Origin: Podarcis tiliguerta
Lineage: Eukaryota
Assembly (NCBI GenBank): GCA_965153285.1
Contig: OZ229111.1
DNA length: 64,000 bases
Strand: one strand, 5' to 3'
Shown: in pieces, positions 36,601 through 39,600 of the stretch
How the letters are laid out: the number at the start of each line of letters is the position of its first letter
How positions within the stretch are numbered: position 1 is the stretch's first letter
Program-made: the position numbers

Positions 36601-39600
36601 ACTGAATTTCTAACTATAAAAAAGAGATTGTAGTGTTGGCATAATTAGTTTGGAAGGATGTCATCAGATTAATATAAGGCAGCTCAGGCCATTGTAACTT
36701 CTGAGTTAGCTGGAGATACTTTGTTCCAGTCACATGTCATCGCAATACAAAATAAAATAATTAACAGGAGTTAATTTTTCTAAAGTCACCTTGGAATGAT
36801 GACCTTATTTGATCCTGCTCCCCTTTTCATAGGACACTGAGGATTAATGGGGGGATCTGATTAATTGATGAATAATCTAATGAAAAGGGGGGTGGGAGAC
36901 AGGGAGATTGGACTTTTTAAAAAGGTGTCAAAGGACACATTCCTCCCTACTATTTTCATACACACACCTGCTATTTGTCAGCATGCAACAAAGGTAAACT
37001 CATGTATCTTATGGTGTAGTGGTTTAAAAGCCAATCTCTAACACTGGGTATATTTGTAATCATTTGGTTTGTAGGACTGGTAAGACAGACATTATTACAT
37101 ATATTACAGTTTTATCCAAAATTTCTGTCTCCCCACCCCTGGGGTCCGTTCCCATGGCTTCCCAAAATCAGAAGTGTTTTTATAATGCTAGTTTCAAAGC
37201 AGATGTCAGCTTCTGTCAAGTCCTTCTTTCTAAAACAACCCATCACTTTGTGATTGGATTATAAAAGAGCAATTTATAGGATTGATGGGTGTAAAAAAAC
37301 TAAGACCGTGCTAAGGACCACAGACTAGGAAGCACAGCCCAACTGATAGTAGTGCCTCTATAGTGAGCTAGATGGTAGTATTAACCAAGTAAGAGAAAAG
37401 AAGCAGGATGTACACCACAGTTCAAAGGAGTTCTACTCTTGGAACCATACTTATTCACATTCTTGCAGGATAGGAATCTTGTCGAGCTGTTGCCATAAGC
37501 GGCAAAAGCAAAGACAAATGCAGTTCACCAGTCCTGTGGCCTGCCAGGTGCTTGATCAATCCTCTCATGTTTTTTGCAGTTCCACCCTTTCGTGGCTGGT
37601 TGGCTGTTTTGCCTGATGGTAACATGTCTGTCAGACCTTTTCCTTTGCTTGTAACAAACGCAAGTCAGTTACAGCAAACACAAACGCAGACACAAATAGT
37701 CTTGTGACTCCTTAAAGACAAACACATTTGTTGCAGCATAAACTTTTGTGGTCTAAAGTCCTCCTTTATCAGATACAGGATAACTGAAGGGAGCCACTTC
37801 ACCTATCTGCTGACGTGTGGGGCTAGAACTCATGCCACAGTAACTGTGCAATCTTATGCATCTGCGCTCCGAATTAAGTTGCATGGTGGTCAGTGAGGCT
37901 CACTCCTAATAATCGCGTTTGGGATTTCACAAGGGTCTTTTCAAATGCCGCTAGCTTTGTTTGGGAAGGTTTGCTTCTGAAACCCTTGCCAACAGAGGCG
38001 CAGCCAGGCTCCCACTGCCTTTGCAGAGTAAGCGGTACTGGCTGTGCTGGGCCCGGCAGGCCTGGATCACTTCCCAGTTGCCGCAATCCCTGCGGAAAGG
38101 GAAGACCACCGCCAGGAAGTGGCCGGAGTCCGCAGCTCCGGATGGCCTTGAGGATCCCATGAATCCGCTGCTCCCGCCAATTCTAGTCTTTGGGACTGTG
38201 GAGCCGCTTCACCAGCAGAATATCTCGACCATGCCCAAGCTGGGCTCTCTGTCCCGCGCGCCTTAGCGGCGTTCTTCCTTCCACCTGCGCAGCACGAGCG
38301 CTTTCCCGCAGGCGGCGGCGGCTTCTCGCGGTCGCCATGGAAACGAGGCCTGGTGCCCCTGGAGCCTTGTCAGAAGCCTCTTGGGGCTGGTACCGCGAGT
38401 GGTCTACCCCACGGAGGCCGCTTCCCAAGGCAAAACCTTAACACCCCTTAACAACTACCGCATTCCGAGCAGGGGGAGTCAGAATCCGACGTGGTATCCG
38501 CCAGCCGGCGCGAGGGACCAGCGCCCTAAACTGAGGGGAAAGGACGGGCGACCACGGCCTACCCTAGCCATTAGAAAGAGGATTAAAAAGGGCGGGAGTC
38601 CAACATATTGGTTTCCCGTTGGATAGGAATTTTGCCCAGTGGGGAAAGAAGGCGGGGAGAGGAAAGCGTGGCCATTGGAGAAGAAAACGAGGGAGCCGTG
38701 AAATGAGTGGGTCTTATGGACAGTTTGTGGAAGAAGGTGTTGAAATTCTGTTGAGGGGTGTAATTGAAGTGGGTGGGGAGGCGGTATCGATTAACTAGAT
38801 TTAAATGCAATTCGGGGTGCAGCGGCAGAGATTGCATTCACCGAGCGGGTGAAGGAGAGTAAGTATGCAAAGTCCTCCCATTTCCATGCTGTTTCCTATA
38901 TGCCATGAGGGCTAGTAGCTCTACTTATGAAAACAGGCGTTGGGGTGTGAGGCTTCGAAAGATCTGGGACCCTCAACAGTTTCCTTTGCTTATTCCATTC
39001 TTAATTCAGCGTTGTACAGACTGGAAAGTGGGAGGGCAGGTTTTAGGATGAATGTTCCTGATTCACTCATGTTCCAGAAGCAGGATTGTTAACTATTTTG
39101 TTTATTTGCTTGCTTGTTATTGAAGGTGCAGCATTCTGCATCCACAACTGACAAAAATCAATAAAAATGTTTTCCATTACTTCCTCTGGATCAGCAGTGG
39201 AGAGCCTTAGGGCTTGGGGCCAAATGTGGCCCTCTTGGCTTTTTATATTTCCCCAGGCCACAACACTCACTGGCTCTGGTGCCCTTCATGAGTGTCTTTC
39301 CTTGGCTGGAATGTGTCCTTGAATTGTCATAATGTTCCTTGCTTACCTGGATGGAGGACTGAGCGGGGTGTGGGAGCTTGTAGAAACTAGCCTGCTTTGC
39401 ACCTACTGCTCTGCACAGTTTTGCCTTTGACCAAGGCCAAGCCTATTCTTTGTGTGTGGCTCCTGGATGATTGCCCCGAAGTGAATGCGGCTTTGAGTTG
39501 GAAAGGGCTCCCTGCCCATGATCAAGATGCTAGATTAACCAAGATTCAGTAATATCCAACTGTCTACGCTAAACTCTCTTAATGAAATTATCCATGGGCA

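What the first reader, a model, noticed from the sequence alone, without database searches (positions are those of the whole stretch)
38000..38860. The dead gene keeps a live-looking CpG-island promoter
Seen: exon 1 has a stop and at least two frameshifts, yet the region keeps dense CpGs, GC boxes and two inverted CCAAT boxes, whereas the downstream pseudo-exons are CpG-poor. Established: methylated CpGs decay rapidly, so retained islands usually mark germline-unmethylated, active promoters. Inference: the promoter outlived the protein and may drive a pseudogene-derived lncRNA or a divergent transcript, or act as an enhancer for SNCB or downstream genes.
Basis: partly seen in the sequence, partly recalled or inferred. 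Interest (0 to 1): 0.65.

Follow-up and report, generated by a model that had tools for sequence, protein, structure and literature searches.

The report
CpG island outliving a dead GLUD gene
A lizard copy of an old glutamate dehydrogenase duplicate next to SNCB is thoroughly broken, yet its CpG-rich promoter and first exon still look unmethylated; this is a known kind of relic, and whether it still drives any transcript cannot be told from sequence alone.

Summary
Window 37801-39000 is the strongest CpG island and the only one not built from repeats. The finding itself has 56 CpG in 861 bp, o/e 0.76, against 0.24 for the window.

It covers the first coding exon (38463-38017, minus strand) and about 400 bp upstream of an intron-bearing pseudogene. 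The parent is a sauropsid glutamate dehydrogenase (GLUD) paralogue lying tail to tail with SNCB. Exon 1 has four in-frame stops and two frameshifts. About half of the coding sequence is no longer recognisable.

An internal clock from three SINE copies suggests the island's CpGs decayed at the ordinary rate, not the methylated rate. That fits long germline hypomethylation, but only moderately.

The GC box and CCAAT boxes are present but no more frequent than chance.

Two plus-strand features hint at a divergent non-coding first exon: the strongest G-skew in the window, and a GTAAGT donor at 38859. No plus-strand coding exon was found in the next 25 kb.

Activity is untested. This is a new member of a known kind.

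The parts
37801..39000 (.). CpG island (merged 500-bp windows with GC >=0.5 and o/e >=0.6): GC 0.556, 65 CpG, o/e 0.71. Single copy in the window.
38017..38463 (-). First coding exon of the GLUD-paralogue pseudogene. ATG at 38463-38461. Stops at 38457, 38406, 38265 and 38185; frameshifts near 38214 and 38131. GC 0.629, 33 CpG, o/e 0.75.
38464..38700 (-). Presumed 5'UTR and core promoter of the dead gene: 17 CpG, o/e 0.91, TpG+CpA o/e 0.72.
   Evidence: position relative to the ATG. The transcription start site itself is inferred.
38590..38595 (+). The only strict GC box (GGGCGG) in the finding.
38651..38657 (+). GGCGGGG, a degenerate GC box.
   Evidence: read
38607..38611 (-). CCAAT on the pseudogene's strand, 144 bp upstream of its ATG.
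38674..38678 (-). CCAAT on the pseudogene's strand, 211 bp upstream of its ATG.
38576..38875 (+). G-rich stretch: GC skew +0.51, the most positive 300-bp window of the 64 kb. The skew is slightly negative to its left (38100-38550). Candidate divergent non-coding first exon.
38859..38864 (+). GTAAGT, a consensus 5' splice site at the end of the G-rich stretch; one of 17 on this strand.
36359..36444 (-). Second coding exon remnant. 'GIRYSSAV' and 'DEVKAL...CAVV' lie in different frames (one frameshift). The second piece is 17 of 17 identical to Pogona P0013. Acceptor and GTAAGT donor are kept.
33788..33913 (-). Remnant matching P0013 residues 353-394, 59.5% identical, with one in-frame stop.
32582..32665 (-). 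Weak remnant matching P0001 residues about 398-425, split over two frames. Not significant on its own (E 3.5).
32294..32356 (-). Remnant matching P0013 residues 497-517, 81% identical. Acceptor and donor are kept.
31983..32086 (-). Last coding exon remnant (P0013 residues 518-554), in three frames, so at least two frameshifts. Acceptor is kept. No AATAAA or ATTAAA within 1 kb downstream.

Best explanation
The island is the ancestral CpG-island promoter plus first coding exon of a glutamate dehydrogenase paralogue. Turtles, crocodilians, birds and other squamates still encode that paralogue. It belongs to the old vertebrate gene block SNC-GLUD-SHLD-GPRIN. In this genome the gene is an unprocessed pseudogene lying tail to tail with SNCB.

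Shown: the identity and strand of the gene, the lesions, the island statistics and the single-copy status.

Inferred: after the gene died, the island stayed unmethylated in the germ line, so its CpGs decayed only at the ordinary rate. It is still used as a promoter. The most likely form is a bidirectional one, where a short G-rich non-coding first exon on the plus strand (about 38.65-38.86 kb, donor at 38859) starts a divergent transcript. That transcript could be a lncRNA or the 5' exon of the next plus-strand gene of the block. A sense transcript over the pseudo-exons is also possible.
For: Gene identity and strand:
- The minus-strand frame 37951-38208 hits GLUD1 chains in PDB at E 5e-9.
- Exon 1 aligns from the ATG at 38463 to intact squamate 'GDH mitochondrial-like' proteins; E is 1.5e-25 for Pogona P0013.
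- Further remnants with introns between them follow on the minus strand down to 31983.
- SNCB lies on the plus strand, with coding exons from about 263 to about 23750.

The gene is dead:
- Four stops and two frameshifts in exon 1.
- At least three more frameshifts and one more stop downstream.
- P0013 residues 174-352 and 395-496 have no match at E <=1.

The island was protected:
- o/e 0.75-0.93 with a low TpG/CpA signal.
- Divergence d of about 0.10 or more.
- CpG loss is about 7-fold faster in the window's own SINE copies.

Hints of a divergent transcript:
- The GC skew changes sign at about 38.5 kb and reaches +0.65 (150 bp) and +0.51 (300 bp, the window maximum). It ends at a GTAAGT.
- The published ancestral block places SHLD and GPRIN after GLUD (PMC10451939, passages).
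Against: - No transcript, methylation, chromatin or cross-species data could be consulted.
- CpG-island calls from sequence are a poor guide to non-methylated islands in cold-blooded vertebrates (PMC3583005, passages).
- The CpG-survival test loses power if d is about 0.05. The d estimate is crude and rests on 121 columns.
- A GTAAGT within 300 bp has a chance of about 0.08 (17 per 64 kb).
- G-rich stretches also occur at 44.1-44.3 kb, in repeat-rich sequence.
- None of 50 of the 51 plus-strand ORFs of 66 aa or more between 38.9 and 64 kb matched a Pfam family above its cut-off. No plus-strand partner gene was therefore seen.
- The GC box and CCAAT boxes are not more frequent than chance.
- The donor site of pseudogene exon 1 no longer has GT at the expected place.
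Confidence: 0.5

Rival explanations
1. Inert relic. The island is still unmethylated only because CpG-dense DNA is protected from methylation by default (binding of CxxC-domain proteins, residual Sp1 or NF-Y sites). It starts no stable or useful transcript and will erode slowly at the ordinary rate.
For: At ordinary rates 82% of CpGs survive d=0.10, so no selection is needed to explain o/e 0.75-0.93. The hypomethylated state of promoter islands is reported to be DNA-encoded (PMC5001583, abstract and passages). No plus-strand coding partner was found. No Rfam family matches in the island.
Against: The strongest G-skew of the window next to a consensus donor is not expected of an idle flank, although this could be chance.
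Confidence: 0.27
2. Recently silenced and now decaying. The promoter stayed active (for example as a transcribed pseudogene) long after coding capacity was lost. It is methylated today and has only begun to lose CpGs.
For: Exon 1 has lower CpG o/e (0.75) and higher TpG+CpA o/e (1.06) than the upstream 237 bp (0.91 and 0.72). That could be an early sign of decay. If d is about 0.05, the methylated model (70% survival) is not excluded.
Against: TpG+CpA o/e in exon 1 is still well below the window's 1.27. Three of the four exon-1 stops are TAG replacing W, Y or N, and E codons, and the fourth is a TAA; none is a CGA-to-TGA change. The lesion load (4 stops in 149 codons, half the coding sequence gone) points to d of 0.1 or more.
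Confidence: 0.13
3. Distal regulatory element. The island now works as an enhancer or boundary for SNCB or for downstream genes rather than as a promoter.
For: It lies about 14 kb beyond the last coding exon of SNCB. Intergenic non-methylated islands are reported to be enriched for regulatory elements (PMC3583005, passages).
Against: Nothing in the sequence speaks for it specifically. Its length, CpG density and position on an old first exon are those of a promoter-type island.
Confidence: 0.07
4. Composition maintained by GC-biased gene conversion at a recombination hotspot, with no link to transcription.
For: GC rises to 0.63 in exon 1 against 0.41 in the pseudogene body.
Against: GpC o/e is ordinary (1.06) while CpG o/e is three times the background. 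The signal is therefore specific to CpG and not merely a matter of GC content. Such hotspots in vertebrates tend to sit at unmethylated promoter-like islands anyway (established knowledge, recalled).
Confidence: 0.03

Closest known systems
lncRNAs derived from lost protein-coding genes, such as JPX from USPL (Hezroni et al. 2017, PMC5577775; abstract and passages read)
   Same: A protein-coding gene kept in other vertebrates has lost its coding capacity in one lineage. Its first exon and promoter region are the parts most likely to be reused; for JPX the first-exon region is the only part still similar across mammals.
   Different: No transcript is known here. That paper also reports that 34% of such lncRNAs have an isoform starting in a transposable element, so many do not use the ancestral promoter. 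It does not mention CpG at all (0 occurrences).
Non-methylated islands of vertebrates, promoter-type and 'plastic' intergenic type (Long et al. 2013, PMC3583005; passages read)
   Same: Lizard non-methylated islands have CpG o/e like those of mammals but lower GC. This island (o/e 0.76, GC 0.59) has the composition, length and first-exon position of the canonical promoter type.
   Different: Membership is defined by experiment (non-methylated DNA capture), which is not available here. The paper warns that sequence-based calls predict such islands poorly in cold-blooded vertebrates.
GLUD1 within the SNC-GLUD-SHLD-GPRIN block (Marin 2023, PMC10451939; abstract and passages read)
   Same: A synuclein gene is followed by a GLUD gene. 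Here SNCB is followed by the GLUD remnant, so this copy looks like the SNCB-side member of the block.
   Different: The paper says only 'isolated genes of the block' remain near gnathostome SNCB. I could not see its figures or supplements, so I do not know whether a GLUD copy beside SNCB is already drawn there. Here the copy is dead.
Human GLUD2 and GLUD1-derived processed pseudogenes (recalled, from no call)
   Same: They are extra copies of a glutamate dehydrogenase gene.
   Different: Those are intronless retrocopies without the parental promoter. This one keeps introns, splice sites and its own promoter island, so it is an unprocessed pseudogene of an ancient paralogue.

Membership tests
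CpG island (sequence definition) | At least 500 bp, GC >=0.55 and CpG o/e >=0.65 (strict), or GC >=0.5 and o/e >=0.6 (classical) | tested here: met
   37760-39039 (1280 bp) has GC 0.551 and o/e 0.69. The best 500-bp window, 38101-38600, has GC 0.626 and o/e 0.84.
CpG island (sequence definition) | Not a CpG-rich repeat | tested here: met
   There is no second copy of 37700-39100 in the window, and no tandem repeat was reported in 36-41 kb. Copies elsewhere in the genome could not be checked.
Non-methylated island / active CpG-island promoter | Unmethylated in germ line and soma by experiment | not testable with these tools
   No methylome is available. Indirect test: CpG survival fits the ordinary rate better than the SINE-calibrated methylated rate at d of 0.1 or more.
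Non-methylated island / active CpG-island promoter | Transcription start sites, H3K4me3 and open chromatin | not testable with these tools
   No expression or chromatin data are available.
Unprocessed pseudogene of a glutamate dehydrogenase paralogue | Homology to the parent family | tested here: met
   PDB GLUD1 at E 5e-9. Pfam ELFV_dehydrog_N at E 1e-3, below the curated cut-off. tblastn to squamate orthologues down to E 1.5e-25.
Unprocessed pseudogene of a glutamate dehydrogenase paralogue | Exon-intron structure kept (not a retrocopy) | tested here: met
   Colinear remnants are spread over 38463-31983 with intact acceptors and donors at several of them.
Unprocessed pseudogene of a glutamate dehydrogenase paralogue | Disabling lesions | tested here: met
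   Exon 1 has 4 stops and 2 frameshifts. Further frameshifts and a stop lie downstream. About half of P0013 has no match.
Unprocessed pseudogene of a glutamate dehydrogenase paralogue | No intact copy of this paralogue elsewhere in the same genome (unitary loss) | not testable with these tools
   Only the window is available. None of the best 120 hits listed is named as a lacertid.
Bidirectional promoter | Two opposed transcription start sites within about 1 kb | tested here: inconclusive
   There is a skew flip at about 38.5 kb, the strongest plus-strand G-skew of the window, and GTAAGT at 38859. No transcript data are available.
Bidirectional promoter | A partner gene on the other strand | tested here: not met
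   50 of 51 plus-strand ORFs of 66 aa or more in 38.9-64 kb were scanned. None reached a Pfam cut-off; two chance-level hits had E 0.07-0.08. Short exons, non-coding partners and genes beyond the window are not excluded.
lncRNA derived from a lost protein-coding gene | A transcript overlapping the remnants | not testable with these tools
   No RNA data are available.
lncRNA derived from a lost protein-coding gene | Intact coding orthologue in other species at the syntenic place | tested here: inconclusive
   Intact orthologues exist in 7 squamates, 5 turtles, a gharial and birds. Their genomic position could not be seen. The block order comes from the literature.

The most novel reading that the evidence does not exclude
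A GLUD paralogue older than the split of bony fish and tetrapods, kept beside SNCB in sauropsids, died in this lizard lineage tens of millions of years ago. Its CpG-island promoter has been retained under selection as a working bidirectional promoter. It now starts a pseudogene-derived or divergent lncRNA, or the 5' exon of the next gene of the block, and may tie into regulation of the SNCB neighbourhood. That would be a reptile example, datable within squamates, of a coding gene turning into a non-coding locus through its promoter.
Probability: 0.25. Interest if true: 0.45.

Novelty: new member of a known kind. Interest (0 to 1): 0.3.

Why it matters
If the island is still unmethylated and transcribed, it would be a clean case outside mammals of a promoter surviving its protein. 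The intact gene persists in other squamates, turtles and birds, so the time of death and the fate of the promoter could be followed species by species.

It also documents a little-noticed second glutamate dehydrogenase gene of sauropsids on the SNCB side of the old synuclein gene block.

If the island is an idle relic, it is still a useful caution. A CpG island can keep its looks for a long time at ordinary mutation rates without any function.

Tried and rejected
- a homology search with the exon-1 frame against longer proteins found nothing (756 candidates, none scored). The exon-2 frame then worked.
- whole frames with stop codons are not accepted by the family scan. I used stop-free ORFs there, and tblastn in scripts with named bird and reptile proteins.
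- Motif enrichment was rejected. There is one strict GC box and three CCAAT in the finding, in line with the window's density.
- No Rfam family matches in the island. The only hit in the window is a tRNA-like match at 6620-6677.
- The island is not a repeat.
- A plus-strand coding partner was not found (50 of 51 ORFs of 66 aa or more scanned, with 63742-63945 left out). The ten longest minus-strand ORFs beyond 38.8 kb also gave nothing.
- A plus-strand coding first exon was rejected. The ORFs from the ATGs at 38337 and 38703 end before the donor at 38859.
- A weak match of P0001 residues 353-368 at 34253-34206 lies out of order and was set aside as chance.
- A literature search for a shared GLUD1/FAM35A (SHLD2) promoter found no paper holding all three terms among the 8 of 11 listed. 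The one I opened says only that the genes lie near each other. The head-to-head arrangement in mammals therefore remains my recollection.
- Literature searches for the sauropsid paralogue turned up only the synuclein synteny paper.
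Full report
**1. What the window is**

The window has no N, GC 0.445 and a strongly depleted CpG o/e of 0.24. SNCB lies on the plus strand. Its start-codon exon lies within 263-601, a middle exon starts at about 19.36 kb, and the last coding exon ends at about 23.75 kb. The best protein matches of the broken gene are squamate proteins. I take the contig for a squamate one, not human.

**2. The island is real**

- The finding (38000-38860) holds 56 CpG where 9.5 are expected from the rest of the window (Poisson P about 6e-25).
- Among 74 non-overlapping windows of the same size the median is 8 CpG and the runner-up has 31.
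- Its GC is 0.589 and its CpG o/e 0.76. GpC o/e is an ordinary 1.06, so the signal is specific to CpG.
- A 1280-bp segment (37760-39039) passes the strict island criteria.
- The island is single copy in the window.
- The other island-like stretches are repeats. Three are 345-bp SINE-like copies at 25.3, 41.9 and 57.0 kb, 88-92% identical. One is a tandem and palindromic array at 44.4-45.1 kb.

**3. The dead gene**

The minus-strand frame 37951-38208 matches vertebrate glutamate dehydrogenase 1 in the PDB (E 5e-9, query residues 29-65). It also matches Pfam ELFV_dehydrog_N weakly (E 1e-3, below the cut-off).

The exon-2 frame retrieved two named bird proteins, P0001 (Strigops) and P0002 (Aquila). 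P0001 in turn retrieved a group labelled 'glutamate dehydrogenase, mitochondrial-like' from turtles, a gharial, birds and seven squamates.

I searched the pseudogene piece by piece. I made no joined or spliced model and left that step out.

tblastn with the squamate proteins shows:
- Exon 1 aligns from the orthologues' own start, 'MRWLL', at 38463 down to 38017 (E 1.5e-25 for Pogona P0013).
- 36409-36359 is 17 of 17 identical to P0013.
- 33913-33788 is 59.5% identical, with an in-frame stop.
- 32356-32294 is 81% identical.
- The last exon, 32086-31983, is split over three frames.
- P0013 residues 174-352 and 395-496, 281 of 555, find no match at E <=1.

Several splice sites survive: the exon-2 acceptor and its GTAAGT donor, and the acceptors and donor around 32.3 and 32.1 kb. 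The expected GT after exon 1 is gone. This is therefore an unprocessed, intron-bearing pseudogene.

**4. Exon 1 lesions**

I ran a frameshift-aware alignment to four squamate orthologues.
- In all four: a frameshift near 38214 with loss of about ten codons, TAG at 38185 in place of a glutamate codon, and a frameshift near 38131.
- TAG at 38457 (codon 3, in place of W) appears in three of the three alignments that reach it.
- TAG at 38406 appears in three of four.
- TAA at 38265 appears in two of four; the other two alignments avoid it with extra shifts.

**5. Where the gene comes from**

I built a quick maximum-likelihood tree of 32 named, non-human proteins. The 17 sauropsid 'like' proteins form one clade (SH-aLRT 99). 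It lies outside a clade of fish, amphibian and mammalian GLUD1 (SH-aLRT 97).

Caveats: the root rests on a single insect row, the sauropsid stem is long (0.29), and no canonical sauropsid GLUD1 was in the set. Long-branch effects are therefore not excluded.

This placement fits a paralogue older than the fish-tetrapod split. [quoted passage not shown] SNCB followed by a GLUD remnant fits that order. I could not see that paper's figures or supplements, so I do not know whether a GLUD copy beside SNCB is already shown there.

**6. How long has it been dead, and were the CpGs protected?**

In the recognisable pieces, 24 of 121 columns that are invariant in seven intact squamate orthologues are changed. 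Under a crude conversion this gives d of about 0.10 substitutions per site. It is probably an underestimate, because only the best-preserved pieces could be counted. Four stops in 149 codons point the same way or higher; that is my own rough estimate from about 4% of random changes making stops, with a wide error.

With recalled squamate neutral rates of about 1-2e-9 per site per year, this means tens of millions of years, perhaps more than a hundred.

The three SINE copies serve as an internal clock. They lost 17 of 69 CpG, 16 of them to TG or CA, against 35 changes at 900 other sites. The ratio is about 7. At d=0.10 that predicts 49% CpG survival, against 82% if both bases change at the ordinary rate. 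At d=0.05 the figures are 70% and 90%.

Exon 1 still has o/e 0.75 and the 397 bp upstream 0.93. TpG+CpA o/e is 1.06 and 0.91, against 1.27 for the window. The data fit long-term protection from methylation, moderately well rather than decisively.

The CpG-poor downstream pseudo-exons (8 CpG in 496 bp) add nothing. Gene bodies are CpG-poor in live genes too.

**7. Promoter anatomy**

On the pseudogene's own strand the order upstream of the ATG (38463) is:
- CCAAT at 38678-38674
- CCCCGCC at 38657-38651
- CCAAT at 38611-38607
- CCGCCC at 38595-38590

This looks like a classical arrangement, 127-215 bp upstream of the ATG. Statistically it is nothing special. The window holds 144 CCAAT and 12 GGGCGG, and the second count is reached by 4 of 100 shuffles.

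**8. The other strand**

GC skew is slightly negative over 38100-38550 (-0.03 to -0.14). It then turns strongly positive: +0.65 at 38625-38774. The stretch 38576-38875 is the most positive 300-bp window of the whole 64 kb, at +0.51.

The G-rich stretch ends in GTAAGT at 38859, one of 17 on that strand. The chance of one falling within 300 bp is about 0.08. G-skew co-oriented with transcription downstream of CpG-island starts is established knowledge that I recall; it comes from no call.

Together these features suggest a short non-coding plus-strand first exon, which would make the promoter bidirectional. The small plus-strand ORFs there stop before the donor. No plus-strand ORF of 66 aa or more in the following 25 kb (50 of 51 scanned) reaches a Pfam cut-off. 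The ten longest minus-strand ORFs there give nothing either. A partner gene, if there is one, is non-coding, has short exons or lies beyond the window.

**9. Reading**

The certain part: a genuine, non-repeat CpG island sits exactly on the first exon and promoter of a long-dead, unprocessed GLUD-paralogue pseudogene.

The likely part (about 0.7): it has been, and probably still is, unmethylated in the germ line.

The open part: whether it is used.
- I put 0.5 on a still-working promoter, most likely divergent or bidirectional.
- I put 0.27 on an idle relic that stays unmethylated because CpG-dense promoter DNA does so by default (PMC5001583). At ordinary mutation rates such a relic would keep its looks without selection.
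- I put 0.13 on recent silencing.
- Enhancer use and biased gene conversion get little.

Sequence-based island calls are a poor guide to methylation state in cold-blooded vertebrates in general. Even so, lizard non-methylated islands have mammal-like CpG o/e (PMC3583005).

**10. Novelty**

Promoters and first exons of lost coding genes that live on in non-coding loci are described in mammals (PMC5577775). This would be a further, reptile, example if transcription is shown. It is a new member of a known kind and of modest interest. The sauropsid GLUD paralogue beside SNCB is the more unusual by-product.

Noticed in passing
window 263-601, about 19358-19480, about 23640-23750 (+): SNCB coding exons on the plus strand: the start-codon exon, a middle exon, and the last exon ending in '...EEYQEYEPEA*'. 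SNCB and the GLUD remnant lie tail to tail, about 8 kb apart.
   Followed up: partly
window 25319-25664, 41930-42275, 56957-57302 (+): Three copies of a 345-bp CpG-rich SINE-like repeat, 88-92% identical, each with CpG o/e 0.63-0.82. They mimic CpG islands. 16 of their 17 CpG losses are to TG or CA, which gives an in-window measure of CpG hypermutability of about 7-fold.
   Followed up: yes
window 44400-45140 and 45898-46072: An island-like stretch made of an 89-bp tandem unit and nested perfect or near-perfect palindromes (for example 44889-44950, 31-nt arms, 100% complementary). It has a related segment 1 kb downstream. The nature of the repeat is unknown.
   Followed up: partly
window 42432-42848 (-): A 139-aa ORF that looks by eye like the C-terminal part of a LINE reverse transcriptase of the RTE/BovB kind (recalled resemblance). 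Pfam gave no match, so the label is unverified.
   Followed up: partly
window 6620-6677 (-): The only Rfam match at gathering score in the window: tRNA, 41.6 bits, model positions 8-63. It may be a tRNA-derived repeat head rather than a gene.
   Followed up: no
proteins P0001, P0002, P0075 against window 36359-36323 (-): The predicted kakapo, golden eagle and Komodo dragon proteins continue after '...YKCAVV' with 'GK...'. In the window this is the GGTAAGT donor read through. They lack the 'DVPFGGAKAG...' segment that Elgaria P0018 has. These database models probably read into the intron or miss an exon.
   Followed up: partly
proteins; tree: Sauropsids carry a second, fast-evolving glutamate dehydrogenase gene (stem length 0.29). 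In the tree it falls outside fish, amphibian and mammalian GLUD1. None of the best 120 hits listed is named as a lacertid.
   Followed up: partly
protein P0003: An unnamed 217-aa protein from a read-assembly source matches 77% of the exon-2 ORF at 61% identity, more of the ORF than the conserved 17 residues. I left it unused because it has no named source.
   Followed up: no
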